The notes beneath the pieces were generated by a model that saw only the letters and a list, made by a program, of their open reading frames with translations, searched no databases and was not told where the DNA came from. The position numbers and the translations under genes are program-made. A stretch of 64,000 nt of DNA, from contig DASYSL010000086.1 of assembly GCA_036003365.1 (NCBI GenBank), positions 1,258 to 65,257 on the forward strand. The letters run 5' to 3'. Positions 2,677 to 43,975 of the stretch are shown piece after piece; the first letter of the stretch is position 1, and each line of letters begins with the position of its first letter. Source of the DNA: Candidatus Eiseniibacteriota bacterium (lineage in GTDB: Bacteria; Eisenbacteria; RBG-16-71-46; DASYSL01).

Positions 2677-2750
2677 GCGAGCTCGTTCGAGGGGGGCGGG
2701 TGAAAGGTGAGCGACTCGAAAGCGAGTCTAGGCGCGAGCGGCGACGAAAT

Positions 2751-4553: not shown

Positions 4554-5492
4554 CTAACCGCCGAAGCGCACACCCCGAATCACCTTCTCGTAGGCCTCTT
4601 CGACATGCTTCCAGTTGTGCCAGCCGAGGACGGCGCCATGGAGAACGCCGGCGGCCAGGAGGACCACCACGGCGTCGTGCGCGAGCGGCGTGAGCACGGG
4701 GCCGAAGCGCCCGGCGCCATACGCCGGGCCGAGCAGCAGAAAACCAACGATCGTGCCCAAGATGAGGCCGCTGATCTTGCCCGGGAGCGTCGAGTTGATG
4801 CGCACCGGTCCGTGCGTGACATAGAGGAACACGCCGCCCGCGAGGAAACCGCCATAGCGCAGCACTGCGAGTGCGGCGGCGAGCGAGGAGACCAAGCCTG
4901 CCGCGCGCATGGAGAGGAAGAGCGCCAAGGCGAAGATGATGTCGGTGATGGGATCGAGCACGGCGCCGAGTCCCGTCTCCTGGCGCATGGAGCGCGCCGC
5001 CCAGCCGTCGAGCACGTCGCTCGCCATGGCAGCGATGAAGATCCAGAAGGCGGCGCGCGGATGGCCGTCGAGGAGCGTGAGACAGAACGCGGGCACACTC
5101 GCCAGCCGGGCCACGGTCAGCGCCGTGGCGAGGTTGATCGCCGAAAGCGAATAGCCTTCGCGCGTGCGCAGGAGGCCGACGTGCAGCACCAGGCTGGCGG
5201 TGAGAGGGGCGAGCCACAGGCCGGTCCACACGAGCACGTGCCGCGCCGTGCCCACCGCGCCCATGCCGAGCAACACACAGCCCGCGAACGTGAGCGCGAA
5301 GAGGATGAGGCCGAGCACCAGGATCGAGCGCGCCGCACCGGGATTGGCCGAGACGTCCTTGCGGCCGCGCAGCCAGGTGCGCGAGGCATAACGGACCCAG
5401 GCGGCGAGCGAGTACTTCTGCTCTCTCAGATCCTGCAGGTAAGTCTCGATGAACACCCGGCGGCTCCTTGGGCGCGTGGCGAATCGGCGCAA
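4554..5492 (-). CDS. CDP-alcohol phosphatidyltransferase family membrane protein.
   Basis: 'DVLDGWAAR' fits the D-x2-DG-x2-AR motif, and there are multiple TM segments. Confidence 0.7.
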   Translation of the reverse strand: MRRFATRPRSRRVFIETYLQDLREQKYSLAAWVRYASRTWLRGRKDVSANPGAARSILVLGLILFALTFAGCVLLGMGAVGTARHVLVWTGLWLAPLTASLVLHVGLLRTREGYSLSAINLATALTVARLASVPAFCLTLLDGHPRAAFWIFIAAMASDVLDGWAARSMRQETGLGAVLDPITDIIFALALFLSMRAAGLVSSLAAALAVLRYGGFLAGGVFLYVTHGPVRINSTLPGKISGLILGTIVGFLLLGPAYGAGRFGPVLTPLAHDAVVVLLAAGVLHGAVLGWHNWKHVEEAYEKVIRGVRFGG

Positions 5493-5559
5493 GACAATGC
5501 GATGGTTCGATCGTGCGGATCAATGGTAACACGCGCCAAGAATTTTCTGTCATCGGCGG

Positions 5560-10401: not shown

Positions 10402-10629
10402 GGAGCCTCCGGATTGCCAAGCGTGCGAGTCGGTTAGGGCGGGTTGCCGCAGCCGTTTCCAGCAGTCGCGCGCATCGTACATCCGGGATCCCCGAGTCTC
10501 AACCCAGCGCGCTGCGGGGGCGACGGCGCTCGCGCGGCCGAGATCCGGCGAGATACGGCCGAGATCCGGGCGAAATCCCGCCGAAGTTCCGAGCCTTGCA
10601 TGGCGTCGCACCCGGTCGCATCATGGGGT

Positions 10630-10690
10630 CGCCCGTTCGTACCGTTCATACCGTTCGTACCGTTCGTACCGTCTTCGTCCCGTTACGGCC
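10630..10690. repeat. Tandem 9-bp repeat (ccgttcgta) of about 5 copies in the divergent ppdK/pepN intergenic region.
   Basis: 'cgttcgtaccgttcataccgttcgtaccgttcgtaccgtc'. It translates as SYRSYRSYR in the spurious upstream extension of the pepN track ORF. Confidence 0.6.
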
Positions 10691-10729
10691 CGTTCGTCCT
10701 CGATCGACAGCCCTCGACATGGAGGCACG

Positions 10730-13472: not shown

Positions 13473-14237
13473 CTACGGCGCGAGTGCCGTGAACAACACG
13501 CTCCCCGTCATCACCACACTCACGACCTCGGTACGGGTGAGCAACCGCGGCTCGAGGAGCTTGGCCAGTCTCTCGGCGTCGGTGCGCTCGATCAAAAGGC
13601 GCACATCGAGGTCGTACTGGCCGCTCGCGCTCATGCTCGGCGGCAGGATGAAGATCGACGGCTCGCGGGCGCCGGCGCAGCTCTGGTAGCGCCAGGTGAT
13701 CGAGGTCAGAGAGTCGCCGGCGGCGGTTTCCTGCACGGCACTCTTCCACTTGAGCAGAGCCGTCGCAGCCGCCTGCTTGCTTCCGTAACTCCCCAAGCGA
13801 ACCGTGTAGAGCCGCGCCACAGACGACTTGTCGGCGTAGCGGAAACGCGCTAGCGCCGAGTCCGGCTTGGGCACGGCCGCGCCCGATCGACGCAACGGTC
13901 CCCTCGGCGTGCGCACGAGCGCGATGGGCGCGCCACTCAGCGAGGCCCGTAGGTCCGGATTGTTCTGCACCAGGTGCCACGCCTGCGAGGCGACGGCGAC
14001 GCCGTGCGCCATGCGCTGCAGGAGCTGCTGCTTCTGCAAGGTCGTCAGGGTCCTCTCGAGATCGCTCGCGGCTTCGCTGGGACAGGTGTCCTGCCACGCC
14101 AGCGTGAACCACGGGCTCGACGCCGCGATGTCACATTCGCACGCTGCCGAAGCCGGAACCGAAGCGGGACCGGCCGCGGTCCATGCCGCCACCGATCCCG
14201 CGAAGAGGAGGGCGAGGACGCGCCTCACGAGCTTCAC
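13473..14237 (-). CDS. Secreted hypothetical protein with a possible SPOR-like C-terminal region. GTG start overlaps the TGA of the upstream MetE-like gene.
   Basis: Signal peptide 'VKLVRRVLALLFAGSVAAWTAAGPA'. 'YTVRLGSYGSKQAAATALLKW' resembles a SPOR repeat. GTG at 14235-14237 overlaps the stop at 14234-14236. Confidence 0.4.
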   Translation of the reverse strand: MKLVRRVLALLFAGSVAAWTAAGPASVPASAACECDIAASSPWFTLAWQDTCPSEAASDLERTLTTLQKQQLLQRMAHGVAVASQAWHLVQNNPDLRASLSGAPIALVRTPRGPLRRSGAAVPKPDSALARFRYADKSSVARLYTVRLGSYGSKQAAATALLKWKSAVQETAAGDSLTSITWRYQSCAGAREPSIFILPPSMSASGQYDLDVRLLIERTDAERLAKLLEPRLLTRTEVVSVVMTGSVLFTALAP

Positions 14238-15217
14238 CGCGCCGCGGCGCTCAGCTTCTCCCGCGCCTGCTTCGCCGCCTGCACCATGTTGGCGCATTTC
14301 GCGCGGGACTCGTCCCAGGTGCGCGTCTTGAGCCCGCAGTCGGGCACCACGCGGATGCGCTCGGGCGGCAGATACTGGAGCGTCTTCTCGATGCCGGCGC
14401 GCATCTCGTCGACCGACTCGAGGCGGTGCGTGTGCACGTCGAACACGCCGAGGCCGAGCGTCTTGGTGAACGGATGCTTCTTGAAGTGATCGACCAGCGC
14501 GAAGCCCGTGTTGGCCATCGCCAGATCGTACTCGTCCACCGCCAGGTCGAGCATGCGCGGATAGATCTGCTCGAAAGTGCCGTAACAGATGTGCGTCAGC
14601 GTCGTGGCCTTGATGCCGCTGGTCACGATGGCCATGGCGTCGATCGCCGTGTCCAGCTCGTCGACCCGTACCGACAGCGCCGGCTCGTCGATCTGGATGT
14701 ACTTGGCGCCCGCGTCGGCCAGCTCGCGCACCTCTTCGTGCAGCGCCCGCGCCAAGTCCAGGCACGCTTCGCGTCGCGAGGCGTAGTGCTCGTCGAACGA
14801 CCAATCCATCATCGTGTACGGTCCGGTGATGATCGCCTTCATGGGCTTCGACGTCAGAGATTGCGCCCACTTCCACCACTCCACCGTGATCGGCCCGCGG
14901 AAGCGCACCGGGCCGGTCAGGATCGGCTTGCGGTAGTAGCGATTCCCGTACGAGCGCACCAAGCCGGAGATGGCGAAGCCGTCCGTGTTCTCGGCGAAGT
15001 AGGTGGCCATGTCGCCGCGGTACATCTCGCCGTCGACCAGGATGTCCATGCCCAGCTCTTCCTGCATGGCGATGGTCTCGCGCGTGGCGCGCTCCTCGAC
15101 CGCCTTGAGCTCGGGCTCGCCGATCTTGCCCTGCTGGAACGCGGTGCGCGCCTTGGTCAGGTACTCGGGCTTGGGAAACGACCCGATCGAGCTGGTCAGC
15201 AATGCGTCGTTCGACAT
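14234..15217 (-). CDS. Cobalamin-independent methionine synthase (MetE) C-terminal catalytic-domain homolog, 327 aa.
   Basis: Zn-ligand motifs are present: 'THICYG' (His-x-Cys), a conserved Glu, and 'PDCGLK' (Cys). 'IQIDEPAL' substrate-binding motif. ATG at 15217. Confidence 0.8.
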   Translation of the reverse strand: MSNDALLTSSIGSFPKPEYLTKARTAFQQGKIGEPELKAVEERATRETIAMQEELGMDILVDGEMYRGDMATYFAENTDGFAISGLVRSYGNRYYRKPILTGPVRFRGPITVEWWKWAQSLTSKPMKAIITGPYTMMDWSFDEHYASRREACLDLARALHEEVRELADAGAKYIQIDEPALSVRVDELDTAIDAMAIVTSGIKATTLTHICYGTFEQIYPRMLDLAVDEYDLAMANTGFALVDHFKKHPFTKTLGLGVFDVHTHRLESVDEMRAGIEKTLQYLPPERIRVVPDCGLKTRTWDESRAKCANMVQAAKQAREKLSAAAR

Positions 15218-15243
15218 GTTCTCTCGCCTTTCGATGAATGCCC

Positions 15244-16227
15244 TTAGCTTCTCGCTCCCGCTCCCAAGGTGTGCGCCGCCTCGCTCAGGCGCGCGAGCTT
15301 CTGCTGCGCGCGGTCGCGGGGCAAGAATTCCAGGCCGGCCGACGTGGTCGCGACCACGCGCTCGGCGCCCTGGCGATCGGCCACGCGCGCCAGCGCTTCG
15401 CGCACCTGGTCGGCGCTCTCGAGGCGCGTGTTGCGCGCGTTCACGATGCCGACGCCGAGCTTCACCGTGCCCGCGGCAGCGCGCGTCGCCAGACGCTCGA
15501 CCAGCGCCGGATCGCTCACCCCGTCGAGCCACAGGCCCGCGACCGCCCACTCCAGAGCGCGATCCAGCAGCTTGACCGGCGAGCCCATGGTCAGCGCCAC
15601 CCAGATCTCGGCGCGCGTTCCGGCCAGCGTGCGCGCCAGGAGCCGCTTGGCCAGGGGCTCGTCCGAAGGATCCTGGACCAGCGCCGGCTCGTCGATCTGG
15701 ATCGCCTTGGCGCCCGCCTCCTCCAGGGCGCGGACCTCCTCGTGCAGGGCCGCGGCCACGTCGGCGGCGAAGCTCTCGAAGTCGCCGTAGTGCGCGTTCT
15801 CCGACAGGCGCGCCAGCGTGTACGGCCCAGTCACCACCGGCCGCACCGGTTTCGACGCCCGCGCCTGCGCGAACTTCCAGTCGTCGACCGCGATCGGCGC
15901 CTTCCAGCGGATCGGCCCCGTGGCCACGGGCTGGCGGTAATACGTGTTGGTGTCGAAATAGCGGATGAGCTGGCCGCGCTTGAAGCCCTCGAGCCGGTCG
16001 GCGAAGTAGGTCTGGCCGTCCTCCCAGCGCACGAGCCCGTCGGTGATCCAGTCGAGGCCGGCCGCTTCCTGCTCGGCGATGGCCTCGCCCGTCACCTCGT
16101 TCTCGACCTCGCGCAACGCTTCGCGCGTCATGCCGCCGGCCTGGAATTTCTGGATGGAGCGGCGCAGCTTCTGCGCTTCCGCTCCTTCCCCGATGCGCGG
16201 GTAAGAACCCAGCGCCGATGCGATCAT
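15244..16227 (-). CDS. MetE N-terminal-domain-like paralog, 327 aa, lacking the Zn ligands.
   Basis: Clearly paralogous to the downstream gene ('TGPYT', 'ALHEEVRALEEAGAKAIQIDEPAL'). The His-x-Cys and Cys ligands are replaced ('VALTMGS', 'TSAGLEFL'). ATG at 16227 with GGGAGG 6 nt upstream. Confidence 0.75.
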   Translation of the reverse strand: MIASALGSYPRIGEGAEAQKLRRSIQKFQAGGMTREALREVENEVTGEAIAEQEAAGLDWITDGLVRWEDGQTYFADRLEGFKRGQLIRYFDTNTYYRQPVATGPIRWKAPIAVDDWKFAQARASKPVRPVVTGPYTLARLSENAHYGDFESFAADVAAALHEEVRALEEAGAKAIQIDEPALVQDPSDEPLAKRLLARTLAGTRAEIWVALTMGSPVKLLDRALEWAVAGLWLDGVSDPALVERLATRAAAGTVKLGVGIVNARNTRLESADQVREALARVADRQGAERVVATTSAGLEFLPRDRAQQKLARLSEAAHTLGAGARS

Positions 16228-16282
16228 GCGGACCTCCCGATCGCCGCGAGGGACACGCCCGCCGCGGCACACGAATGAACGA

Positions 16283-18427
16283 TCACTGGACCGGCCGCCG
16301 GAACAGGCTGGCCGGCACGACCGGATTCCACTTCACTTCCGCCAGCGTCTGCTGGACGGCTTTCTCTCCGTTGGCATAGACCGTGACCTGATACGGGAAC
16401 TTCACCTTGCCGCTGGTGCGGTAGTCCGTGTACACGCGGCGCACCGGCACCCACCCGGATCCCAGAGGCGAGAGCTCCTGCTCCTCGATCAAGAGCAAGA
16501 GCCCGGTGGCAGAGTCGATGTACACGCTGGCCGGCCGCCCGTCGGGGCGGTTCCACTCGATCACATCTGCGGTCTTGCCGAAGGCCGTGTCGGTGCCGGC
16601 GTAGCGAATGTCGGCCCGCGCATTGGACAGCACGGTCAGGAGCCGCACCGGATTGGCGTACGTGCCCTGGCGCATGGCTTCCATCTGATCCGGCGACATC
16701 GGCACCAGGCGTCCCGATGCCGAGGCCCACGCGCTGTCACCGTCGAGCACCTGGATCATGGTCTGGCCCATCACGGCCATCTCCATGCGCCGGCGCGCCG
16801 GCAATTGCACCGTCTCGCTGTAGGCGCCGTCGAGATTGGTCGAGCCGACGTTGATCCACAGCTGACCTTGCGCGTGCCAATTCTTGATCGCGGCGAGCGC
16901 CGGCATGCCGCCGTGGGCCTTGACGGCCTTGGCCACGACAGCCGCCGCCTTGGCGCGCGACTCCTTGGTATCGGGCGCGCGCATCGCCGGCGCGGCCGGC
17001 GCCACCTCGGGCACGGCACCGCTCCTGGCCGTGAAATCGAGGCGCTCCACCTGGCCGTAGCCCGTGAGCTGCGTGGCCACGCTGTCGGCGCGGCCGGCCA
17101 CCACGAGCGCCACCGGCTCGGTGCGCAGGTACTTCTGCGCCACGCGCTTCACGTCCTCGACGGTGACGCCGCGGATGCGATCGCGATACTTGTCGAAGTA
17201 GTCGTCACCGAGCCCGTAGAACTCGATCACGAGCCAGGCGCGCGCCACGTCGCCCGGACTCTCGAACTGGAAGGGAAACGAGCCGAGATAATAGGACTTG
17301 GCCTTGGCCAGCTCGTCGGCCGTCGGCCCCTGGTCGCGGTAGCGGCGGATCTGGTCGAAGGTGGCGTCGATCGCCTGCTTCACCGTGGCGTTCTTGGTGA
17401 AGGTCTCGATCACGAACGTGCCCGGGTCGACGCCGTACGTGAAAGCGGTCGAGATGTCGTAGGTGAGCCCCATCTTGGAGCGCACCTCCGAGGTCAGCCG
17501 TGAGGCGAAGCCGCCGCCGCCCACGATGTAGTTCATGAGCTGCACGGAGTAGTAGTCGGGCGTGGTGCGCGGCAGGCCGAGATAGCCGATGCGCACCTGC
17601 GACTGCGTGAGGTCCGGCTTGTTGAGCAGGCGGACGCGGTTGCCCTGCAGGTCCGGATCGGGCACCTGGGGGCGCGGCGGCACGTCGCGCTTCTGCCAGC
17701 CGCCGAACGCCTTCTCGACCGCGGCGAAGGCTTCCTCCGGGTTGATGTCGCCGGCCACGGCGAGCACGGCGTTGTTGGGACGCCAGTAGTTGGTGTGGAA
17801 TTCCACCAGGTCCTGGCGCGTGAGTCCGCCCACCGAATGCTCGTCGCCGCTCACCGGGCGCGCGTAGGGATGCGAGCCATGGACCAGTGCTGCCAGATGC
17901 TCGTCGGCCACCGTGCCCGGATCGTCGCGGCTCTGGCGAATGGCCGCCTGCGCCTGGCTCTTCGCGCGGTCCACCTCGCCCGGCGCAAAGGCGGGACGCA
18001 GGCAGACGTCGGCCATGAGGCCCAGGACCACGTCCTTGTCCTGCGTGCGCGCTTGTCCGACCAGCATCGAGTAGTCGCGGTCGGCGCTGGCTTCGAGATC
18101 GGCGCCCAGGAAGTCGATCTTCTCGGCCAGCTCGAGCGACGTCATGGTGTCCGTGCCCTTGCGCATCACGTCGGCGGTGAGCGAGGCGAGGCCGGACTTC
18201 TCGGCCCCCTCGTTCGACGCGCCGGTGCGGATCAGCATGCGGTAGTAGACCGCGGGCAGGTCGTGGTCTTCGAACACGTGCACGACGAGCCCGTTGGGCA
18301 GCGTGCGCGTGACGGGATGGGGAACCTTGTATTCGTTGGCCGGGGCAGCGTTCTTGTCGGCGGCCCACGTAGGCAGCGGCGCGAGCAGAGCGCCAAGAAC
18401 GAGAAAGCGCATGACGAAGCGCATCAC
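16283..18427 (-). CDS. M16 family peptidase, non-catalytic subunit-like, with signal peptide and a roughly 250-aa C-terminal extension.
   Basis: M16 fold motifs are present but no HxxEH ('HVFEDHDLP'). 714 aa. Its ATGA overlaps the downstream M16 gene. Confidence 0.75.
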   Translation of the reverse strand: MMRFVMRFLVLGALLAPLPTWAADKNAAPANEYKVPHPVTRTLPNGLVVHVFEDHDLPAVYYRMLIRTGASNEGAEKSGLASLTADVMRKGTDTMTSLELAEKIDFLGADLEASADRDYSMLVGQARTQDKDVVLGLMADVCLRPAFAPGEVDRAKSQAQAAIRQSRDDPGTVADEHLAALVHGSHPYARPVSGDEHSVGGLTRQDLVEFHTNYWRPNNAVLAVAGDINPEEAFAAVEKAFGGWQKRDVPPRPQVPDPDLQGNRVRLLNKPDLTQSQVRIGYLGLPRTTPDYYSVQLMNYIVGGGGFASRLTSEVRSKMGLTYDISTAFTYGVDPGTFVIETFTKNATVKQAIDATFDQIRRYRDQGPTADELAKAKSYYLGSFPFQFESPGDVARAWLVIEFYGLGDDYFDKYRDRIRGVTVEDVKRVAQKYLRTEPVALVVAGRADSVATQLTGYGQVERLDFTARSGAVPEVAPAAPAMRAPDTKESRAKAAAVVAKAVKAHGGMPALAAIKNWHAQGQLWINVGSTNLDGAYSETVQLPARRRMEMAVMGQTMIQVLDGDSAWASASGRLVPMSPDQMEAMRQGTYANPVRLLTVLSNARADIRYAGTDTAFGKTADVIEWNRPDGRPASVYIDSATGLLLLIEEQELSPLGSGWVPVRRVYTDYRTSGKVKFPYQVTVYANGEKAVQQTLAEVKWNPVVPASLFRRPVQ

Positions 18428-19779
18428 TCGCCTCCTCCTTCCTTGGGCACGAGCCAGACCACGGTGCGCCCGCTGGGCTGCAGATATTCGCTCACCACTC
18501 GGCGCACGTCGGCCGCCGTGACCCGTCGCACTTCATCGAGCTGGCGCGCGGCCGCGTGGTCGTCCCCGGTGATGACGGCAGCCGTGCCGACCGCCGTGGC
18601 GCGGTCTTCGACGCTCTCGAGACCGAAGATGAGCTCGGACTCGGCTTGGTTCTTGGCTTTGGTCAGCTCCTCGGCCGTGGGCCCATCCTTGCCGAGCCGC
18701 TCGATCACCGAGAACATCGTGTCCTCGACCGCTTGGCGATCCTTGCCCGGCTTCACGGCGGTGAACGCGTAGAACAGACCGGGGTTCTTGCGGCCGAGCG
18801 TGAACCCGCCGGCGAAGAGCGCCGACTGGTCGTCGTACACGAGCTTTCGATAGAGGCGCGACGACTCGCCCTGCGAAAGGATCCGGTTCACCACCTCGAG
18901 CGCCGGCGTGTCGGAGGACGAGTCCGGAGGCACCTTGTAGCCCGCGATCAGGATGGGAAGCTGCACCACGGCCTGCTTGATGGAGCGGCGCTCCGCGGTT
19001 TGCTTGGGCTCCACCACGTTCACGGGTGGCGACGGCCGCCCGGGCTTCAGGGGCCCGAAGTACTTCTTCACGATCTTCATCACCTGGTCGTGCGTGACCG
19101 GCCCGCACACCACGATGGTCGCTTTGTCGGGCGCGTAATGGATGGCGTAATAGTCCTTCACGTCGGCGAGATTGATGGAGTCGAGATCGGCCGGCCAGCC
19201 GAGCGTCGGCCAGTGATAGGGATGGGTGGTGAAGGCGAGCGCCGTCATCTCCTCGATGGCCTGGCCGATGGGCTGGCTGTCGACGCGGTAGCGGCGCTCT
19301 TCCTTCACCACCTCGCGCTCGCTCTTCAGATTCTCGGGCGTGAGGCGCAGCGTCGACATGCGGTCGGACTCGAGCCGCGCGCACAGCTCGAGCTGGTCGG
19401 GCGGCACGTCCTCGTAATAGACGGTCACGTCCCAGGTCGTGAACGCGTTGTCCTGGCCACCCGCCGCCTGGATGATCCTCGAGTGCTCCTCGGGACCAAA
19501 GTTCTTCGAGCCCTTGAACATCATGTGCTCGAAGAGATGCGAGATGCCGGTGATGCCCGGCCGCTCGTTGCGCGAGCCGACGTCGTACCACACCTGAAAG
19601 CTCAGGACGGCCGCCTTGGGGTCCTCCAGCGTGAGCACGCGGAGCCCGTTCTTGAGGCGTCCCTCCTTGGGCAAAAGCAGATCGGCGGGCGCCGCCGCAA
19701 CCGTGATCGCCGACCCCAGACCCAGACTCGCTGCCACGGCGAGCGTGGCGAGGCCCCGGGTCCATCCCCTGCCGATCAT
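18424..19779 (-). CDS. M16 family zinc peptidase, active subunit, with signal peptide.
   Basis: 'HLFEHMMFKG' inverted zinc motif HxxEH. ATG at 19779 with AGGAGGAAGGA immediately upstream. Confidence 0.85.
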   Translation of the reverse strand: MIGRGWTRGLATLAVAASLGLGSAITVAAAPADLLLPKEGRLKNGLRVLTLEDPKAAVLSFQVWYDVGSRNERPGITGISHLFEHMMFKGSKNFGPEEHSRIIQAAGGQDNAFTTWDVTVYYEDVPPDQLELCARLESDRMSTLRLTPENLKSEREVVKEERRYRVDSQPIGQAIEEMTALAFTTHPYHWPTLGWPADLDSINLADVKDYYAIHYAPDKATIVVCGPVTHDQVMKIVKKYFGPLKPGRPSPPVNVVEPKQTAERRSIKQAVVQLPILIAGYKVPPDSSSDTPALEVVNRILSQGESSRLYRKLVYDDQSALFAGGFTLGRKNPGLFYAFTAVKPGKDRQAVEDTMFSVIERLGKDGPTAEELTKAKNQAESELIFGLESVEDRATAVGTAAVITGDDHAAARQLDEVRRVTAADVRRVVSEYLQPSGRTVVWLVPKEGGGE

Positions 19780-19848
19780 TCCTTCCTCCTGGCGGGGATC
19801 CCCCCCGCCTCCTCGGCCTTCCAAAATGGAGTGGGTGAAACGAGGAAA

Positions 19849-21597
19849 CTACAACAAAACGAGGCGTCTTCCGAGATGTACCCCCGGCGCTTCGAAGCGG
19901 ATGAAATAAACCCCGGCATGGGCGCGCACGCCGCCGCCGTCGGTGCCATCCCACGAGAACAGGCGCTCGGAGCCGGCGCGTAGGCTGCCCGCGAACAGCT
20001 CGCGCACCTGGCGGCCGCGCGCGTCGAACACCCCCAGGCTCGCCGGCCCGCCGGCAGCACCGGCGCGTGCCCAGAAGGCGATCGATCCCCCGCTCACCAC
20101 AGGCAGAGGCCCGACCATCACGAGCGCCGCCGCCCCGGACACGGTTTGCGCGAACACGGTGCTCGGCGTCCAGGCGAGTGCCGCCTCGGCGCGCGCGAGC
20201 CCATAGCCGAAATGCGTGTCGGCCGCTCCGAACTGACTCGCCGTCGCGCGCAGCGCCTGCAGCACCTCGAAGGGCGACCACTGCGGATGCGCTTCGAGGA
20301 GCATTGCCGCCACCCCGGCCACCGCCGGCGTCGAGAACGAAGTCCCGGTCGCCAGCGTGAGGTTCACGTCGGAGGCCGGTGAGGCCAGGGACGTGCTCAC
20401 GCCCATGGCGCACACGTCCGGCTTCACGCGGCCGTCGGCGCTCGGCCCGTACGACGAGAAGAACGCCACCCGCCCGGTCGAGTCGGTGGCGCCCACGGCG
20501 CACACCGTGTCGGCATCGGCGGGGGCGATCAGATAGCGCCATGGCGTCAGGCCCTCGTTGCCCTGCGCCGTGACCACGACGATGCCGCGCCGCGCGGCTT
20601 CGGCGGCGGCGCGCGTGACCACCGTGGTGCGTCCGTCCATGTCGCCATAGCTGTACGACGGAAACGGCGCGTCGAACGTCGTGTAGCCGAGCGACGAGGA
20701 GATGACGTCGGCGCCCAGGCTGTCGGCCCACTCGGCCGCCGCCTGCCACCAGTCCATCTCGACCGGCGTCTCGCTCGTCACCACCTCCACCTTGGCGAGC
20801 GCGAAGGTGGCGCGAAACGCCGTGCCCACGAGCACGCCGGGCTCGTACGCGCCCACCACCGAGAGCGTCTCGGTGCCGTGGTAATCCTGGCCCGCGTCGT
20901 CCTGGCCCGCCTCGTTCGCCACCACCGTGTCGCCGTGGACGAAGTCGCGGCGCGCCACGACGTGCAGCGAATCGAACACCTCGTGCGTCTCGCGGAAGCC
21001 CGTGTCGATCATGGTCACGAGGATGCCGGCGCCGGACAGCCCGCGCGCGTGCAGGCGATCGCTCTCGATCAAGGCGTTCTGCGCCGCCGAGGCGCCGTAG
21101 AACGCGGCATCCCCCGGCTCGGCGAACCTGGCGTCCGCCAACCGCGGCGCGGCCGGGGGCACGATTTCGGTCGTCGCGCGCTCGAGGTCGGAATCGACGC
21201 GCACCCGCTCCACCGGCTCGATCCGGCTCACGAACGGGAGCCCGGCGAGCTCGGCGAGGCGCTCGGGCGCGGCTCCGACGCTCGCCGCGTTGAGCCAGCG
21301 GCTCACGACTCGAACCTGGAACCCGCGCGCCATGAGCGCGCTCACGTAGCGCGGCTCGACGGGAAGATCGTTGGCGAAGGGCTCGGCCGCCCCGCGTCGC
21401 GCGCGGCGCTCGAGAGCCCGGGCCGAGACCGTGGCCCGCGCGGCGGCGCGGCACTGCGCGGCCGGCGCGTTCTCCAAGTCTCCGTGATCGGCGAAGCGCA
21501 CCCACACGACGTCGGCGCGCGCCGTGCCTGCGAGCGCGAGCAGCGCCCAGGCCAGCGCCCACGCCGGGACCCAGGCCAGCGCCCACGCGCGCTTCAA
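19849..21597 (-). CDS. S8 subtilisin-like serine protease with signal peptide and T9SS/Por-type C-terminal sorting domain. TTG start overlaps the asparaginase TGA.
   Basis: Asp/His/Ser triad motifs 'VTMIDTGF', 'HGTETLS', 'GTSFSTPAVAG'. C-terminal 'GVYFIRF...RLVLL'. The signal-peptide region contains a 24-bp tandem repeat coding AWALAW. Confidence 0.8.
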   Translation of the reverse strand: MKRAWALAWVPAWALAWALLALAGTARADVVWVRFADHGDLENAPAAQCRAAARATVSARALERRARRGAAEPFANDLPVEPRYVSALMARGFQVRVVSRWLNAASVGAAPERLAELAGLPFVSRIEPVERVRVDSDLERATTEIVPPAAPRLADARFAEPGDAAFYGASAAQNALIESDRLHARGLSGAGILVTMIDTGFRETHEVFDSLHVVARRDFVHGDTVVANEAGQDDAGQDYHGTETLSVVGAYEPGVLVGTAFRATFALAKVEVVTSETPVEMDWWQAAAEWADSLGADVISSSLGYTTFDAPFPSYSYGDMDGRTTVVTRAAAEAARRGIVVVTAQGNEGLTPWRYLIAPADADTVCAVGATDSTGRVAFFSSYGPSADGRVKPDVCAMGVSTSLASPASDVNLTLATGTSFSTPAVAGVAAMLLEAHPQWSPFEVLQALRATASQFGAADTHFGYGLARAEAALAWTPSTVFAQTVSGAAALVMVGPLPVVSGGSIAFWARAGAAGGPASLGVFDARGRQVRELFAGSLRAGSERLFSWDGTDGGGVRAHAGVYFIRFEAPGVHLGRRLVLL

Positions 21598-22640
21598 CGC
21601 GCGCGCACGGTCGCCGTGTCCGGCTCGGCCGCCTCCCGCTCGGCCCGCAAGAATCCCACGACGAGCCCGCGATGGTTCTTGATCGACGGCTGCGCCCAGC
21701 GTTCGAGCGCGGCGAGTGCCGAGTCGCTCAGGCGGCCGCTCTCGCGCATCCACGCGATCACCGACGGGCCCACGGCGCGCCGCGAGCCGTCGAGCACCTT
21801 GACCGCCACGCCTTCACCCGTCTCCGGGAATCCCAGACATTGCAGGCCCTCGGCGCCCGTCTTGGTCACCACGGCCCCGGCTCCTGCCGTCAGCACGTCG
21901 GTGCAGAAGCGCCCCTCGCCCGCCACCATACGGGGCTCGGCGATCATGGCCCGGCGCACGAGCGCGAGCGCGCGATCGCGCGCGTCCATGGCGTCGGCGC
22001 GGGCCACGGCGAAGCGCGAGAAGCCACGCGCCATGGCCGAGAGCGGCAGCGCCGGATTGGCGGCGCTGCAGCCGTCGACGCCGAGCGGCATGGCACGCGC
22101 GTCCACACCGCAAACCTCGGCGACCGCGGCCATGCAGGCGCGCTGCACCGGATGGTCGAAGGCCACGTAGTCCTCGACCGGCCAGCCCTCGCACACGGCG
22201 AGCGCCAGCATGCCGGCGTGCTTGCCCGAGCAGTTGTTGTAGATCGGCGAGGGCGCGAGCGCGCCCTGCCGCAGGCCGGCGTCGTGCTCGGGATCCTCGG
22301 GGTAGTGGAACCCGCACAAGAGATGCCGGTCCGAGAGACCGATGCGCTCGAGCATGCCGCGCACCACCGTGACGTGCTCGGCCGCGCCATTGTGCGAGGC
22401 CGACATGACCGCCAGCTCCCGCGCGCCGAACCCCAGCTTCTCGGCGTGGCCGCGCTCGACCAGTGGCAGCGCCTGGAAGGGCTTGCAGGCGGAGCGAAAG
22501 AAGGTGACGAAGTCGCCCTCCGGTCCCTCGTCCAGCCCCTGGGGACGCCACGTCACCACCACCGCCTCGTGCACCGCCTCGTCCTGCCCGGGCGCGCCGC
22601 GGCGCACGTGCACGCGATAGCGCGCGAGCCCGGCGCTCAA
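21594..22640 (-). CDS. L-asparaginase II family protein (PF06089-like). TTG start overlaps the aminotransferase TGA.
   Basis: 'FFRSACKPFQALPLV', 'NNCSGKHAGMLA' and 'KTGAEG' family motifs. The fusion ORF 21594..23897 in the track is split here. Confidence 0.7.
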   Translation of the reverse strand: MSAGLARYRVHVRRGAPGQDEAVHEAVVVTWRPQGLDEGPEGDFVTFFRSACKPFQALPLVERGHAEKLGFGARELAVMSASHNGAAEHVTVVRGMLERIGLSDRHLLCGFHYPEDPEHDAGLRQGALAPSPIYNNCSGKHAGMLALAVCEGWPVEDYVAFDHPVQRACMAAVAEVCGVDARAMPLGVDGCSAANPALPLSAMARGFSRFAVARADAMDARDRALALVRRAMIAEPRMVAGEGRFCTDVLTAGAGAVVTKTGAEGLQCLGFPETGEGVAVKVLDGSRRAVGPSVIAWMRESGRLSDSALAALERWAQPSIKNHRGLVVGFLRAEREAAEPDTATVRAR

Positions 22641-24061
22641 CCGACCCGCCGCACCGCACCGGCGGCTCGCTTCGGCCGGCGTCCGTTCTGCCGCGCTCGG
22701 CCCCGCCCGGCGCGCGATTCGACCGCGGTCACCGCATCCTCGAGCACTTCGAGGCCGACCTGTGCCTGGGCGCGGGTCAAGGTGAGCGGCGGCGAGATGC
22801 GAATGGCGGAGTTCCCCGCCCCCAGCGTCAAGAGTCCGCGCTCGAAGCAGGCTTGGATGATGGCGTCGCGCCGGTCGTGATCGCCGCGCGTCGTATCCGG
22901 CTCGACCACCTCGACCGCCAGCATGAGGCCCATGCCGTTCACCCAGCCGAGGTGCGGGTGACGCTTCACCATGGCCTCGAGCTCCTTCTTCATGAAGTCG
23001 CCGACCTGGCGCGCGTTGTCGAGCAGCTGCTCCTCGATGAGGTCGAGCGTGGCGAGAGCGGCCGCGCACGAGACCGGGTTGCCGCCGAACGTGTTGCCGT
23101 GCGAGCCCGGCGGCCACGACATGAGCTCCTTCGAGGCCACCGTGATGCCGAGCGGCATGCCCGAGGCGATGCCCTTGGCGATCGTCACCACGTCGGGCTT
23201 CACGTTCCAGTGCTCGATGGCGAACCACTTGCCGGTGCGCCCCATGCCCGACTGCACCTCGTCGGCCACGAACAGGATGCCGTACTTGTCGCACAGCGCG
23301 CGCAGGCGCTCCAGGTAGCCGGGCGGCGGCGTGACGTAACCGCCCTCGCCCTGGATGGGCTCGACGAACAGCGCCGCCACGTCCTCCGGCGGCGTGTGCT
23401 TGGCGAAGACGTAGTCCTCGATGAACGACACGCAGGCGTAGCCGCAATCGGGAAACTTGAGATTGAAGATGCAACGCTTGCAGTCGGCGAAAGGCACGTG
23501 CGTGGCTTGCGGCGTCTGCGGCGCGAAGCCGCGGCGCTGCACCGCCTTCGACGCCGTGAGCGTGAGCGAGCCCATAGTGCGGCCGTGAAACGCCCCATAA
23601 AACGCCATGAACAGCGGCCGGCGCGTCTGGTAGCGCGCCAGCTTCATGGCCGCCTCGACTGCTTCGGTGCCGGAGTTGGAGAAGAAGGCCTGCTTGGGCC
23701 CGGAGCCGGGCACGAGCTTGGTGATGCGCTCGCCGAGCCGCACCTCGAGGTCGTAGTAGAAGTCGGTTCCCGACATGTGGAGGAAGCGGCCCGCCTGGTC
23801 GCGGATCGCCTTGACCACACGCGGATGCGAGTGGCCGCTCGCCCCCACCGCGATGCCGGCCGTGAAGTCGAGGAAGCGGTTGCCGTCCACGTCCCACAGG
23901 AGGGCGCCGCGCCCGTGGCTCATGGCCAGCGGATAGGCCCGCGTGTAGGACGCCGAGATGGCGCGGCGGTCGCGCTCGACGATCGCGCGGGCGCGCGGCC
24001 CGGGCAGCTCCTTGGTGATCAGCTCGGGGCCGTGGGGACTCGGCCTCTGGGTCGTGGTCAC
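22637..24061 (-). CDS. Class III PLP-dependent aminotransferase (GabT / acetylornithine aminotransferase-like).
   Basis: 'FVADEVQSGMGRTGKWFA' and 'TIAKGIASGMPLG' (PLP-lysine region). Confidence 0.85.
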   Translation of the reverse strand: MTTTQRPSPHGPELITKELPGPRARAIVERDRRAISASYTRAYPLAMSHGRGALLWDVDGNRFLDFTAGIAVGASGHSHPRVVKAIRDQAGRFLHMSGTDFYYDLEVRLGERITKLVPGSGPKQAFFSNSGTEAVEAAMKLARYQTRRPLFMAFYGAFHGRTMGSLTLTASKAVQRRGFAPQTPQATHVPFADCKRCIFNLKFPDCGYACVSFIEDYVFAKHTPPEDVAALFVEPIQGEGGYVTPPPGYLERLRALCDKYGILFVADEVQSGMGRTGKWFAIEHWNVKPDVVTIAKGIASGMPLGITVASKELMSWPPGSHGNTFGGNPVSCAAALATLDLIEEQLLDNARQVGDFMKKELEAMVKRHPHLGWVNGMGLMLAVEVVEPDTTRGDHDRRDAIIQACFERGLLTLGAGNSAIRISPPLTLTRAQAQVGLEVLEDAVTAVESRAGRGRARQNGRRPKRAAGAVRRVG

Positions 24062-25244: not shown

Positions 25245-27779
25245 TCACTCGATCGGTCTCCAGTCCTTGGCATCGAGCTGGACGGCGCCCGGCCCGGTCT
25301 GCGTCAGCGGGTTGGTGTTCTTCGTGAAGCCGAACTTCTCGAGCACCTTGGTGGTCGCGATCTGCACCTGAGTGCGGTCGAGGTACCAGAGCGGGATGCC
25401 GGTCCAGTCGAGCTCCCATGCCGCCCCTGTGTGGTCGACGACGTGGAACCACACCGGCTTGCCGTCCGGCCAGTCGTTCGCGGCGCGGATTCTCTGCGTC
25501 AGGCAGCGGCCGAGGAAGAGCGTGTCGAACTCGGCCTCGGACGGGGAGATGCTATTGGCCAGCGAAAGATACGGGCAAGCGATGCTCGACGGCGGCTTGG
25601 TCGGCCAAAAGTTGAATTCCGTCTGCATGGGGATGATCGACAGCCCATCCCAGGTCGGCAGGTTCCTGACCGAGGCCGGGCCGACGCGCGGATCGCAGGT
25701 CGCGGTGCGCTGGCCCGTCCATCCATCGGGTGGCCAGGGCGCGTCCGTGCACATGAACTGCGGCAGATAGGGAATGAAATCGCCGTAGTTGTCGTTCACG
25801 GACTGAATGTCTCCCGCCCCACCCTGGTCGGCGATGTCGATCCCCGAATGGATCTTCAGGTAGTCGTACATGAAGTTTCCCGGCCACAGGATGTGCTGGC
25901 GGTCCGGCTTCGTACCCTCCCCGCGGTACGGGAAGGGCGCCGGGCCGGTGCCGGCGAAGCGCGTGACGTAGCCGGCGGCGAGCGTCTGCAGGATGCCGCT
26001 GCCGAACAGGAACGCCTTGCCGCCCTGCGACAGGTAGACGGCCAGCGTGTTGAGGTGGCCGGCGTCGGTGATGTAGTGCAGGGCGCTCTCGGGGCTCGAT
26101 CCGAACTTGCTCGTGCCGATGCGGCCCGCGTCCTTGTCGCCCGTGTACCAGACGACCGCTCGGTACTTGGTCATGATGCTCAGCGGCAAGCCGTTGGTGG
26201 GCGTGAAGCGGTAGTCGAGCGTGTCGCTCACGATATTGCCGCTGGCGTCGGAGAAGAAGCCGGAGAAGATGCCCGGTTTCGATGTTCCTCCGATTCCGAC
26301 CCAGGGAACTCCGCCCTTGGCGTAGAACAGCGTATCGAGCGTCGACTCGATCGGATAGTTCGAGTATGCCGCGTGGTCGGCGCGGTCGGTGTCGCCGCGG
26401 AAGTCGTCGAAGAACAGGATGTTCTTGGCGATGCTCGGATCCTTGAACGCTGCTTTCACCACTTCGAGCTGGATGACCATGATCGAGGTGGCGCCGGTGT
26501 TGTCACGCGCCTCGAGGTAGAAGCGGTGGAAGATGGTCGTGTCGGGATGCCCGTTCACGGTCGTGATCTGGTAGAACGGCCCGAGGATGGTGGACGTCTC
26601 GGTGGTCGACCAGCTCGACCAGCGGTAGGTCTGCGAATCGTTGTCGCGCGGCGTCTCGTTGAAGATGTCGCCGTCGATGGGGTCGAGCACCCAGCGGAAG
26701 CCGTTCAGGACGGTGCCCTGCGAGAGGGCGGCGACGTCCCAGTTCATGGGGATCGGCTGTCCCTCGGGAACTTCCAGCGGCACGACGCGCGACTCGCTCA
26801 AGTCGAAGCTCCCGCGCGCACCCTGGCTGCGGATGAAGAACGAGTTGAAGACCACGATGGCCGGCGCCTGCAGCTCGGTGCTGGGCTTGAAGCGCAGCAC
26901 GTTGTTGTTGAGGTTGAAGCGCGGCTCGTAGGCGCCCGCGATGTCGAACGCGACGACGGCGAAGTACCACACCTGACCGGGGGTCACGCCTTCGTACTGC
27001 TTGAACGTGGTGTCGGCGGACACCGAATCCCAGTCGGCGAAATTGGGCGCATCATGGCTGAAGAAATTCTGGATGTCCTGCTGGGTGGGCGTGATGCCGC
27101 CGATTTGCTGCACCTGCTGGATCGTCGACTGGCTCACCAGCTTGAACTTGTACAAGCGGGGCGGGCCGCCGACGCCTTCGCCTTCACGGTCCGGGTCGGT
27201 GCCGTGCCACTCGATGCGCACGCTGGGAGCCGTGGTGGCCGTGCTTCCCGCTCCGGGGTTGGGCGATGTGATCTGGGTGACCGGGGCCACGGTGCGCGAG
27301 CTGAAGCTCACGCTCGTGGGCGGCGAGAAGGCGCCTTCGTTGTCGACCGCCTTGATGGTGAACTCGTGGTAGTCCTTGCTCGTCACCTGGGTGGCCGGGA
27401 AGCTCCCCGAAGTCACGTTCGTGCTGCCCGGACTCGGCTCGCTCGACTTGAAGAAGATCGTCGTCTCGTTGCGGTCGATCCGCGTCCACACGGTGTCGCC
27501 CAGCGCCGGCGGGTCCACGGCGTAGATGAAATAATCGACGCGGCCGTCGGAGTCCGAGCCAGTCCACTGCAGGCGCACCTTGAAGTAGACGGAGTCGCCC
27601 GGCTGCGGGCGCGCCGTCAGCTGGACCTGCGGACGATAGTTTTGGACCCCGATCCCCCCGCCTCCCTTGGACGAACAGCCCCACGCCGCGAGCGCCAGAC
27701 AAGCGGCGAACAGCAGCCGCTGCGCTCCACCCCATGCATTGTTCATGCGGCTCACATCCTTTCGCCGTCCGGCCTTCAT
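25245..27779 (-). CDS. Large lipoprotein (844 aa), uncharacterised, paralogous to the upstream gene. Its ATGA overlaps the upstream stop.
   Basis: Lipobox 'LALAAWGC'. Repeated 'W.GSD.DG.V..F.YAV' and 'YKFKLV' beta-sandwich-like modules. Confidence 0.7.
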   Translation of the reverse strand: MKAGRRKDVSRMNNAWGGAQRLLFAACLALAAWGCSSKGGGGIGVQNYRPQVQLTARPQPGDSVYFKVRLQWTGSDSDGRVDYFIYAVDPPALGDTVWTRIDRNETTIFFKSSEPSPGSTNVTSGSFPATQVTSKDYHEFTIKAVDNEGAFSPPTSVSFSSRTVAPVTQITSPNPGAGSTATTAPSVRIEWHGTDPDREGEGVGGPPRLYKFKLVSQSTIQQVQQIGGITPTQQDIQNFFSHDAPNFADWDSVSADTTFKQYEGVTPGQVWYFAVVAFDIAGAYEPRFNLNNNVLRFKPSTELQAPAIVVFNSFFIRSQGARGSFDLSESRVVPLEVPEGQPIPMNWDVAALSQGTVLNGFRWVLDPIDGDIFNETPRDNDSQTYRWSSWSTTETSTILGPFYQITTVNGHPDTTIFHRFYLEARDNTGATSIMVIQLEVVKAAFKDPSIAKNILFFDDFRGDTDRADHAAYSNYPIESTLDTLFYAKGGVPWVGIGGTSKPGIFSGFFSDASGNIVSDTLDYRFTPTNGLPLSIMTKYRAVVWYTGDKDAGRIGTSKFGSSPESALHYITDAGHLNTLAVYLSQGGKAFLFGSGILQTLAAGYVTRFAGTGPAPFPYRGEGTKPDRQHILWPGNFMYDYLKIHSGIDIADQGGAGDIQSVNDNYGDFIPYLPQFMCTDAPWPPDGWTGQRTATCDPRVGPASVRNLPTWDGLSIIPMQTEFNFWPTKPPSSIACPYLSLANSISPSEAEFDTLFLGRCLTQRIRAANDWPDGKPVWFHVVDHTGAAWELDWTGIPLWYLDRTQVQIATTKVLEKFGFTKNTNPLTQTGPGAVQLDAKDWRPIE

Positions 27780-29722: not shown

Positions 29723-29837
29723 CCAGCGTCCTCCAGAAACGCCCTGAATTGTGCCCGGTGTGACAAGAATCTAACGATTGGGGGCGTGGTCCGTCAACCA
29801 CCCGATCGCGGCCAAGAACCTTCCCGCCAGCGCGCCG

Positions 29838-34409: not shown

Positions 34410-34539
34410 GTTGTCAGCCTCCAACGAGACGGCTCGAGTCCGCCTCTGAGAGTAGAGAGAACGACTCCCGGGAGGAGTATCCAGAAGAACAATCCGACGC
34501 GCCGGCTTCACCCGCCCGAGAACCTTGTCCGCTCGCAAT

Positions 34540-36423: not shown

Positions 36424-36438
36424 GGCGGTTGGGGCTTT

Positions 36439-43930: not shown

Positions 43931-43975
43931 GGGGAAACCTTCCTCCGGTAAGGCGCGTCGTGTTCGCGCTTGCTC

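What the first reader, a model, noticed from the sequence alone, without database searches (positions are those of the whole stretch)
14234..16227. Cobalamin-independent methionine synthase split into separate N-like and C-like genes
Two tandem 327-aa paralogs lie 26 nt apart. The downstream one has all MetE Zn ligands (His-x-Cys in 'THICYG', Cys in 'PDCGL'). The upstream one has the same fold motifs but lacks every ligand. That mirrors the non-catalytic N-terminal barrel versus catalytic C-terminal barrel of full-length MetE. It suggests a two-polypeptide MetE, or a core-MetE plus a non-catalytic partner.
Basis: partly seen in the sequence, partly recalled or inferred. Interest (0 to 1): 0.55.

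Follow-up and report, generated by a model that had tools for sequence, protein, structure and literature searches.

The report
Two-gene (split) MetE methionine synthase
Two adjacent half-size genes in an uncultured Eisenbacteria genome encode a zinc-binding methionine-synthase barrel and a ligand-less partner barrel; this is a bacterial example of the "split MetE" already proposed for archaea, so it is a useful annotation fix rather than a new kind of system.

Summary
Two 327-aa paralogs (35% identity) lie 26 nt apart on the minus strand.

- **Downstream gene (B):** a MetE catalytic barrel. It keeps His209, Cys211, Cys294 and the homocysteine-binding residues. The fourth zinc ligand (E. coli Glu665) is Ala here, so "all ligands" is overstated.
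- **Upstream gene (A):** has no cysteine at all and lacks every ligand.

That work describes it mainly in archaea and names one bacterium.

- In 77 of 77 informative related loci, an A-like gene is followed directly by a B-like gene, usually with a 4-nt overlap.
- Eleven loci also carry an adjacent gene that includes a methylenetetrahydrofolate reductase domain.
- A-like proteins group with the archaeal partner and with the N-halves of fused MetE. B-like proteins group with the C-halves.
- B keeps the folate-stacking Trp and the DM(V/A) motif. A keeps two of three N-barrel folate contacts as invariant Arg.

Most likely this is a heterodimeric, cobalamin-independent, methyl-folate-dependent methionine synthase. 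NCBI labels A "hypothetical protein". Verdict: new member of a known kind, modest interest.

The parts
15244..16227 (-). Gene A: 327-aa non-catalytic partner barrel of split MetE (N-barrel-like, putative folate-tail/cleft-closing subunit). NCBI HEV8480220.1, 'hypothetical protein VGR66_05450'.
   Evidence: ORF and sequence. Pfam Meth_synt_2 103.5 bits and Meth_synt_1 91.2 bits. No Cys. Zinc positions read A/T/D/A. AlphaFold model pLDDT 94.5, TIM barrel with long beta hairpin; best PDB matches are MetE structures at TM 0.86. dN/dS 0.20 against L003. Source name.
14234..15217 (-). Gene B: 327-aa catalytic zinc/homocysteine barrel of split MetE. NCBI HEV8480219.1, 'methionine synthase'.
   Evidence: Pfam Meth_synt_2 281.7 bits. 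NCBIfam NF003317 397.3 bits against a cut-off of 406. 226 bits to the T. maritima MetE C-barrel. 232 bits to the Halobellus split-MetE catalytic subunit. Functional residues.
15218..15243 (-). 26-nt spacer between A and B, with a purine-rich Shine-Dalgarno-like stretch (gaaaggcgagag) before B's ATG. The two genes are read as one operon.
   Evidence: Sequence. No promoter-like or terminator-like site between the genes. In relatives the same junction is mostly a 4-nt ATGA overlap.
14585..14593 (-). Codons for His209-Ile-Cys211 of B (HxC zinc ligands, equivalent to E. coli H641/C643).
   Evidence: His invariant and Cys in 70 of 71 B-family members.
14519..14521 (-). Codon for Ala233 of B, at the position of the fourth zinc ligand (E. 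coli Glu665). This departs from the canonical site.
   Evidence: Glu in 65 of 71 relatives, Ala in 6. In this protein no compensating residue stood out.
14336..14338 (-). Codon for Cys294 of B (PDCGL; equivalent to E. coli C726).
14801..14803 (-). Codon for Trp139 of B, equivalent to T. maritima Trp539, which stacks on the pterin ring.
   Evidence: and PMC539065. Invariant in the B family; Thr in folate-independent MesD.
16162..16164 (-). Codon for Arg22 of A, equivalent to T. maritima Lys18 (contact to the folate glutamate tail).
   Evidence: Arg in 77 of 78 A-family members and Lys in one.
15961..15963 (-). Codon for Arg89 of A (in RYFDTNTYYRQP), equivalent to T. maritima Lys104 (hydrogen bond to pterin O4).
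   Evidence: Invariant Arg in the A family.

Best explanation
Genes A and B encode the two subunits of a split, cobalamin-independent methionine synthase (split MetE).

B is the catalytic barrel. It binds zinc through His209, Cys211 and Cys294, with water or substrate presumably filling the fourth site because the usual Glu is Ala. It binds homocysteine through Ser13, Glu64 and Asp177. It also supplies most of the pterin contacts: Trp139 for stacking, Asp69-Met70-Ala71 (the DMV motif), and Arg93/Arg96.

A is a catalytically dead paralogous barrel. It is inferred to dock face-to-face on B, as the N-barrel does in fused MetE. That would close the inter-barrel cleft and contribute conserved basic residues (Arg22, Arg89) to hold the methyl-tetrahydrofolate polyglutamate. 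The methyl group would then pass directly from N5 of the folate to the zinc-activated homocysteine thiolate.

Shown here: paralogy, ligand pattern, strict gene pairing, purifying selection, and family placement. Inferred: physical A-B complex, folate as the methyl donor, and enzymatic activity.
For: 1. **Domain identity.** B is a strong Meth_synt_2 / PRK04326 match. A matches both MetE barrel models.
2. **Gene pairing.** In 80 related genome loci, an A-like gene is followed on the same strand by a B-like gene in 77. The other three contigs end before the expected position. The junction is a 4-nt overlap in 36 of the 73 pairs measured and at most 12 nt in 55 of them. This suggests translational coupling, as expected for subunits of one enzyme.
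3. **Same arrangement in archaea.** A cultured haloarchaeon, Halobellus limi, has the same order and a 4-nt overlap. Its catalytic gene passes NF003317 at 505 bits.
4. **A is maintained, not decaying.** dN/dS is 0.20. There are 29 invariant residues across 67 homologs down to about 43% identity. At least 120 clusters at 50% identity share the ligand-less signature.
5. **Orthology to the MetE N-barrel.** The tree gives 82% and 98% support for the two clades. The E. coli N-half scores 40-53 bits to A-like proteins against 15 bits or less to B-like proteins.
6. **Folate-contact residues** (list from PMC539065). On B: Trp invariant, DM(V/A), Arg invariant plus Arg/His/Lys. Folate-independent MesD has Thr at the Trp position and His-Phe-Val in place of DMV. 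On A: Lys18 becomes Arg22 and Lys104 becomes Arg89, both invariant or nearly so.
7. **Link to methyl-folate supply.** Eleven of 80 loci, from several lineages, have a fused homocysteine-S-methyltransferase + MTHFR gene directly adjacent on the same strand. It lies upstream in some and downstream in others.
8. **Published precedent.** Price et al. report that the Pyrococcus homologs PF1268 and PF1269 form a complex (PMC7857596).
Against: - No split MetE has been assayed biochemically. The latest GapMind preprint still lists it as 'previously proposed'.
- B lacks the Glu665-type zinc ligand. Price et al. regarded a Gly at that position in another family as probably incompatible with zinc binding.
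- The T. maritima Glu583 pterin contact falls in a loop that is shortened in all split-type catalytic subunits. It has no aligned equivalent.
- The T. maritima Arg15 equivalent is not conserved in A.
- By raw score, A resembles catalytic barrels more than fused N-barrels.
- No MTHFR, metH or folate gene lies in this 64-kb window, and no riboswitch precedes the pair. The local context therefore gives no independent support.
- The tree is neighbour-joining on simple distances, and internal nodes are weak.
Confidence: 0.72

Rival explanations
1. B is a self-sufficient 'core' methionine synthase of the MesA/MesB/MesC type, taking methyl groups from a corrinoid protein or methylcobalamin. A is an accessory or regulatory pseudoenzyme that does not help bind folate.
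For: - The characterised short MetE-like enzymes use methylcobalamin in vitro (PMC7005905; PMC7857596).
- Price et al. note that MesA is 38% identical to a split-MetE catalytic subunit.
- The Glu583 pterin contact has no aligned equivalent in B.
- No folate gene lies in the window.
Against: - B keeps the pterin-stacking Trp, the DM(V/A) motif and the two tail-binding basic residues. MesD lacks the Trp, the DMV motif and the second basic residue.
- The A partner is retained in 77 of 77 informative loci, usually with a translationally coupled junction.
- An MTHFR-containing gene is adjacent in 11 loci.
- Corrinoid or Wood-Ljungdahl genes did not appear among the conserved neighbour clusters that were annotated.
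Confidence: 0.15
2. The pair is a MetE-derived methyltransferase with a different substrate: another thiol acceptor or another methyl donor. The altered metal site (Glu to Ala) would mark the change of function.
For: - B scores 397 bits, just under the NF003317 equivalog cut-off of 406.
- The fourth zinc ligand is missing.
- NCBI's pipeline labels several A homologs 'methylcobamide--CoM methyltransferase'.
Against: - All three homocysteine-binding residues (Ser, Glu, Asp) are invariant in B and its family.
- The Ala variant is scattered among otherwise typical family members (6 of 71), not confined to a separate clade.
- The A homologs carrying the 'CoM methyltransferase' label lack the zinc ligands such enzymes need.
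Confidence: 0.08
3. A is a decaying tandem duplicate of B with no function.
For: A lacks all catalytic ligands. NCBI annotates it 'hypothetical protein'.
Against: - The reading frame is intact.
- dN/dS is 0.20.
- 29 residues are invariant across phyla.
- The family spans at least 120 clusters at 50% identity.
- Pairing is conserved in bacteria and archaea.
- The structure model is a confident barrel, pLDDT 94.5.
Confidence: 0.02

Closest known systems
Split MetE of archaea (Pyrococcus furiosus PF1268 + PF1269; haloarchaeal and Thermoprotei pairs), proposed by Price, Deutschbauer & Arkin, PLoS Genet 2021 (PMC7857596)
   Same: - Two proteins of about 320-360 aa: a ligand-less partner followed by the catalytic barrel.
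- Same gene order and tight or overlapping junction (Halobellus limi pair).
- The catalytic subunits belong to the same NCBIfam family, NF003317.
- The partner is ambiguous between Meth_synt_1 and Meth_synt_2 in both.
   Different: - The host is a bacterium (Candidatus Eisenbacteria). Price et al. named only one bacterium, Sulfobacillus sp. hq2.
- B falls 9 bits below the NF003317 cut-off and has Ala at the Glu665 ligand position.
- A fails the paper's operational rule that Meth_synt_1 must outscore Meth_synt_2. The authors acknowledged the same exception for AMET1_0515.
- A is only distantly similar to the haloarchaeal partner (106 bits).
Canonical fused MetE (E. coli MetE, T. maritima MetE PDB 1XDJ/1XPG/1XR2, TIGR01371)
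   Same: - Same two barrel types in the same N-to-C order.
- Same homocysteine-binding residues and three of the four zinc ligands.
- Pterin-stacking Trp, DMV-type motif, and basic residues equivalent to Lys18 and Lys104 on the non-catalytic barrel.
   Different: - Two polypeptides rather than one chain of about 750 aa, with no inter-barrel linker.
- A lacks the roughly 30-residue insertion of the fused N-barrel and is much less diverged from the catalytic barrel.
- The beta4-alpha4 loop that carries T. maritima Glu583 is shorter in B.
- Glu665 is replaced by Ala.
Core (folate-independent) methionine synthases MesA, MesB, MesC and MesD/MesX
   Same: A single Meth_synt_2-type barrel of about 300-390 aa with the HxC...C zinc motif and homocysteine-binding residues.
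   Different: - These enzymes work without an N-barrel-like partner.
- Their methyl groups come from corrinoid proteins, or for MesD from an oxygen- and MesX-dependent route.
- MesD lacks the Trp and DMV folate features that B keeps.
- B scores only 124 bits to MesD, against 232 bits to a split-MetE catalytic subunit.

Membership tests
Split MetE, catalytic component (Price et al. 2021) | Single-barrel protein of at most 400 aa matching the MetE catalytic domain (Meth_synt_2) | tested here: met
   327 aa; PF01717 at 281.7 bits over residues 7-316.
Split MetE, catalytic component (Price et al. 2021) | At least 200 bits by phmmer to PF1269 of P. furiosus, a threshold that excludes MesA-D and MetE | tested here: inconclusive
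Proxies: 232 bits to the Halobellus limi split-MetE catalytic subunit and 124 bits to MesD. NF003317 scores 397.3 bits, just under its 406 cut-off, while the Halobellus and Thermoplasmata subunits pass at 505 and 441 bits.
Split MetE, catalytic component (Price et al. 2021) | Zinc ligands His641, Cys643 and Cys726 (E. coli numbering) | tested here: met
   His209, Cys211 and Cys294.
Split MetE, catalytic component (Price et al. 2021) | Fourth zinc ligand Glu665 (Asp tolerated in MesB) | tested here: not met
   Ala233 in DLAMAN. Glu in 65 of 71 relatives and Ala in 6.
Split MetE, catalytic component (Price et al. 2021) | Homocysteine-binding residues Ser433, Glu484 and Asp599 | tested here: met
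   Ser13, Glu64 and Asp177. Invariant in 71 of 71 family members.
Split MetE, putative folate-binding component | Protein of at most 400 aa matching Meth_synt_1 above its cut-off | tested here: met
   PF08267 at 91.2 bits against a cut-off of 27.
Split MetE, putative folate-binding component | Meth_synt_1 score higher than Meth_synt_2 score (operational filter of Price et al.) | tested here: not met
   91.2 vs 103.5 bits. The Halobellus partner fails the same filter (40.3 vs 53.9 bits), as does AMET1_0515 cited by the authors. The filter is therefore known to be too strict.
Split MetE, putative folate-binding component | Encoded next to the catalytic component | tested here: met
   26 nt upstream on the same strand. 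The same arrangement holds in 77 of 77 informative related loci.
Split MetE, putative folate-binding component | Forms a physical complex with the catalytic component (PF1268-PF1269) | not testable with these tools
   Only indirect support: overlapping start and stop codons in most relatives.
Split MetE (whole system) | Methyl-tetrahydrofolate (or methyl-pterin):homocysteine methyltransferase activity | not testable with these tools
   Inferred from conserved folate-contact residues and MTHFR adjacency in 11 loci. No biochemical assay of any split MetE turned up in the held papers.
Canonical MetE (TIGR01371) | Single polypeptide of about 750 aa with both barrels; TIGR01371 at or above 929.95 bits | tested here: not met
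   A scores 111.5 bits and B scores 314.5 bits; each is 327 aa.
Core methionine synthases MesA-MesD | Stand-alone catalytic barrel without an N-barrel-like partner and without folate-binding features | tested here: not met
   The partner is present and strictly co-inherited. The Trp and DMV folate features are retained in B and absent in MesD. MesX and CoFeSP genes were not specifically searched for in the window.

The most novel reading that the evidence does not exclude
The bacterial A-type partner is a slowly evolving intermediate between the catalytic barrel and the N-barrel of fused MetE. It still scores better against catalytic-domain models, and it keeps Ser/Asn-Gln-Asp at the old homocysteine pocket and the YYRQP hairpin arginine.

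Canonical fused MetE would then have arisen by fusion of such an adjacent A-then-B operon pair. In the tree, fused N-halves and C-halves nest inside the split-type partner and catalytic clades.

On this reading, split MetE is not an archaeal peculiarity. It would be a widespread bacterial methionine synthase: 435 matching stretches in species-representative genomes, mostly Chloroflexota. Current annotation rules miss it, which would bias predictions of methionine prototrophy and B12 dependence from metagenome-assembled genomes.
Probability: 0.4. Interest if true: 0.45.

Novelty: new member of a known kind. Interest (0 to 1): 0.3.

Why it matters
Methionine synthase type decides whether an organism needs vitamin B12, so it feeds into metabolic reconstructions of uncultured lineages.

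Here the partner subunit is labelled "hypothetical protein", and in Chloroflexota relatives it is labelled "methylcobamide--CoM methyltransferase". It also fails the published Pfam-based filter for split MetE. Pipelines would therefore see only an orphan half-size "methionine synthase". They might call it a corrinoid-dependent core enzyme, or treat the pathway as incomplete.

Recognising the pair extends split MetE to many bacterial genomes. It also gives well-behaved bacterial sequences for the first biochemical test of the split enzyme. The partner family looks like a less diverged relative of the MetE N-barrel, which bears on how the double-barrel enzyme evolved.

Tried and rejected
- **Riboswitch or leader upstream of A.** Rfam gave no hit at gathering thresholds over the whole window and only a chance miRNA hit at E = 0.37 in the local region. 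The promoter and terminator scan found nothing relevant.
- **Other methionine genes in the window.** tblastn with E. coli MetE, A, B and two MTHFR-fusion proteins found only A and B. Pfam scans of 29 other ORFs found no methionine, folate or cobalamin genes.
- **Conserved neighbourhood beyond the pair.** Apart from the MTHFR fusion (11 loci), the recurring neighbours look lineage-specific and unrelated: a CoA-ligase-like protein (13 loci), MutL, RecO, an aminotransferase and others.
- **Fold comparison to decide N- versus C-barrel.** Foldseek matched A's model to MetE chains at TM 0.86 but does not report which half was aligned, so this was uninformative.
- **Independent recent duplication of B giving rise to A.** Rejected because of the shared N-barrel signature and the tree.
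- **A residue compensating for Glu to Ala in B.** Four of the six Ala-variants have His in place of Ser right after DEPA(L/I), but the window protein keeps Ser.
- **The exact PF1269 and PF1268 criteria of Price et al.** Those sequences could not be obtained, so a Halobellus limi pair served as proxy.
Full report
**What is in the sequence**

Two ORFs sit on the minus strand. Gene A runs 16227..15244, with an ATG start six bases after GGGAGG and a TAA stop. Gene B runs 15217..14234. Each encodes 327 aa, and 26 nt separate them. The alternative GTG start at 16272 for A is unlikely, because homologs begin at the same MIASALGSYP residues. The window comes from a Candidatus Eisenbacteria metagenome-assembled genome. 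A is identical to NCBI HEV8480220.1 ("hypothetical protein VGR66_05450") and B to HEV8480219.1 ("methionine synthase"). A and B are clear paralogs: 35% identity, E = 2e-58.

**Gene B is a MetE catalytic barrel**

- Pfam Meth_synt_2 scores 281.7 bits.
- NCBIfam NF003317 "methionine synthase" scores 397 bits, just under its cut-off of 406.
- B scores 226 bits to the C-barrel of T. maritima MetE and 39% identity to the E. coli C-half.

In E. coli numbering, B has Ser433, Glu484, Asp599, His641, Cys643 and Cys726. In B these are Ser13, Glu64, Asp177, His209, Cys211 and Cys294.

The fourth zinc ligand, Glu665, is Ala233 (DLAMAN). Among 71 family members, 65 have Glu and 6 have Ala. The 92%-identical relative in L003 also has Ala. 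In T. maritima MetE this Glu leaves the zinc when homocysteine binds (PMC539065). From general knowledge, other zinc thiol-methyltransferases manage with three protein ligands, so I regard the site as probably functional. This remains a real caveat.

**Gene A is a ligand-less barrel that selection maintains**

A contains no cysteine. It reads A/T/D/A at the four zinc positions. It matches both Pfam barrel models: Meth_synt_2 at 103.5 bits and Meth_synt_1 at 91.2 bits. Its AlphaFold model is confident (pLDDT 94.5, pTM 0.92). The model is a TIM barrel with the long beta hairpin typical of MetE barrels, and its best PDB matches are MetE structures at TM 0.86.

A is not decaying:
- dN/dS against the relative in L003 is 0.20; for B it is 0.15.
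- 29 residues are invariant across 67 homologs down to about 43% identity.
- Among representatives clustered at 50% identity, 120 of 122 full-length hits carry the same ligand-less signature.

**The pairing is strict**

A scan of species-representative genomes found 435 stretches encoding A relatives. The best 80 loci are mostly labelled Chloroflexota, Dehalococcoidia or Thermomicrobiales. Others are labelled Eisenbacteria, Zixibacteria, Armatimonadota, Gemmatimonadota, Dictyoglomota and Thermoplasmata.

In 77 loci a B-like gene follows directly on the same strand. In the other three the contig ends first. The junction is a 4-nt overlap in 36 of the 73 pairs measured and at most 12 nt in 55 of them. 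The A-then-B order mirrors the N-then-C order of fused MetE.

**Relation to known systems**

Price et al. 2021 (PMC7857596) defined "split MetE" from Pyrococcus PF1268 and PF1269, which form a complex. They described it as primarily archaeal, with Sulfobacillus sp. hq2 as the one bacterial example named. They predicted methyl-tetrahydrofolate or other methyl pterins as donors. In the text I read, it is still listed only as "previously proposed".

I obtained a reference archaeal pair from a Halobellus limi plasmid. The partner gene is followed by the catalytic gene with a 4-nt overlap. Its catalytic subunit passes NF003317 at 505 bits. Its partner shows the same Meth_synt_2 > Meth_synt_1 ambiguity as A. 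B scores 232 bits to that catalytic subunit, against 124 bits to a MesD core synthase.

**Is A an N-barrel equivalent or a recent copy of B?**

By raw score A is closer to C-barrels:
- 85 vs 53 bits against the E. coli halves.
- 115-128 vs 53-79 bits for the A-family profile against the two barrels of PDB MetE structures.

Three results point the other way:
- The E. coli N-half scores 40-53 bits to A-like proteins and 15 bits or less to B-like proteins.
- A-like proteins share N-barrel motifs: [FY]P[RK][IV]G, [WY]F[DN]TN.[HY]Y, Tyr at position 643 and Asp at position 665.
- A neighbour-joining tree with 100 bootstraps puts A-like proteins, the Halobellus partner and three fused N-halves in one clade (82%). 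It puts B-like proteins and three fused C-halves in another (98%).

The duplication is therefore old, and A is the slowly evolving counterpart of the N-barrel. Inner nodes of the tree are weak, so whether the fused form derives from the split form stays open.

**Mechanism**

In T. maritima MetE, folate lies in the cleft between the two barrels. The contacts are Arg15, Lys18 and Lys104 on the N-barrel. On the C-barrel they are Arg493, Arg496, Trp539, Glu583 and the DMV motif (PMC539065).

- On B and its family, the Trp is invariant, DM(V/A) is present, the first Arg is invariant and the second is Arg/His/Lys. Folate-independent MesD has Thr and His-Phe-Val at the Trp and DMV positions.
- On A and its family, Lys18 corresponds to Arg22 (77 of 78 members) and Lys104 to Arg89 (78 of 78). 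Arg15 is not conserved.
- Glu583 falls in a loop that is shortened in all split-type catalytic subunits.

In 11 of 80 loci from several lineages, a fused homocysteine-S-methyltransferase + MTHFR gene sits directly beside the pair, sometimes upstream and sometimes downstream. The Halobellus pair sits next to a Mer-like methylene-pterin reductase.

Together these support a heterodimeric enzyme that uses a methyl-pterin donor. The complex, the donor and the activity are all inferred.

**Local context**

The pair follows two M16 peptidase genes after a 55-nt gap. A 254-aa signal-peptide ORF follows B, and its GTG start overlaps B's stop codon. No riboswitch, promoter-like site or terminator-like site was found around the pair. 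The window holds no other MetE, MTHFR or cobalamin gene.

**Verdict**

This is a bacterial member of split MetE, currently mis-annotated. The added value is modest: a broad bacterial distribution, a failing Pfam filter, a Glu665Ala variant, and a hint about MetE evolution.

Noticed in passing
window 13473-14237 (-): A 254-aa ORF with an N-terminal signal-peptide-like segment starts at a GTG that overlaps B's TGA stop (GTGA). It equals NCBI 'hypothetical protein VGR66_05440' and has no Pfam hit. A 33%-identical homolog sits directly after the B gene in the close relative L003, but not in the other related loci.
   Followed up: partly
window 14519-14521 (-); B-family alignment: The Glu665-equivalent zinc ligand is Ala in 6 of 71 B-family proteins from scattered lineages. 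Four of those six (not the window protein) also carry His in place of Ser immediately after the DEPA(L/I) motif. That His could be a replacement ligand.
   Followed up: partly
window 10633-10697: A 9-nt tandem repeat (CCGTTCGTA, 6.9 copies) lies in the divergent intergenic region between the pyruvate phosphate dikinase gene (minus strand) and the M1 aminopeptidase gene (plus strand). Two further short arrays lie nearby at 10535-10584.
   Followed up: no
window 16286-24061 (-): A co-directional gene string lies upstream of the pair: class-III aminotransferase, L-asparaginase II, an S8 subtilase with a C-terminal FlgD_ig domain, and two M16 peptidase genes. The second M16 gene ends 55 nt before gene A. 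The pair may be co-transcribed with protease genes rather than with methionine genes.
   Followed up: partly
window 42668-44893 (-) and 4557-5519 (-): A myo-inositol-1-phosphate synthase gene lies next to a CDP-alcohol phosphatidyltransferase gene, with a second such transferase elsewhere in the window. This suggests inositol phospholipid synthesis in this Eisenbacteria genome.
   Followed up: no
window 478-2727, 25248-27914, 27779-29770, 35710-37785; 30150-34604: Four large ORFs with coding-like codon composition (660-890 aa) have no Pfam match. A 1485-aa ORF matches only a C-terminal FlgD_ig domain.
   Followed up: no
L083 (Halobellus limi plasmid NZ_CP031312.1) 1249-6081: The haloarchaeal split-MetE pair lies directly downstream of genes annotated as 5,10-methylenetetrahydromethanopterin reductase (Mer-like), a DUF447 protein and a beta-ribofuranosylaminobenzene 5'-phosphate synthase family protein. 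This points to a methanopterin-like pterin supply for the archaeal enzyme.
   Followed up: no
P0264 (representative): One protein that groups with the non-catalytic partner clade in the tree nevertheless has His, Cys, Asp and Cys at the four zinc positions. It may be a partner-like barrel that kept or regained a metal site.
   Followed up: no
L003 and other loci: Taxonomic labels of the metagenome-assembled genomes look unreliable. L003 is labelled 'uncultured Alphaproteobacteria', yet its A and B genes are 83% and 92% identical to the Eisenbacteria window. A 'Nanoarchaeota' assembly carries a typical bacterial-type pair.
   Followed up: no
homologs P0054, P0062, P0083, P0087, P0095 etc.: NCBI's pipeline names many Chloroflexota A-family proteins 'methylcobamide--CoM methyltransferase'. 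The family members examined lack the His/Cys zinc ligands such enzymes need, so this is probably a systematic misannotation.
   Followed up: partly
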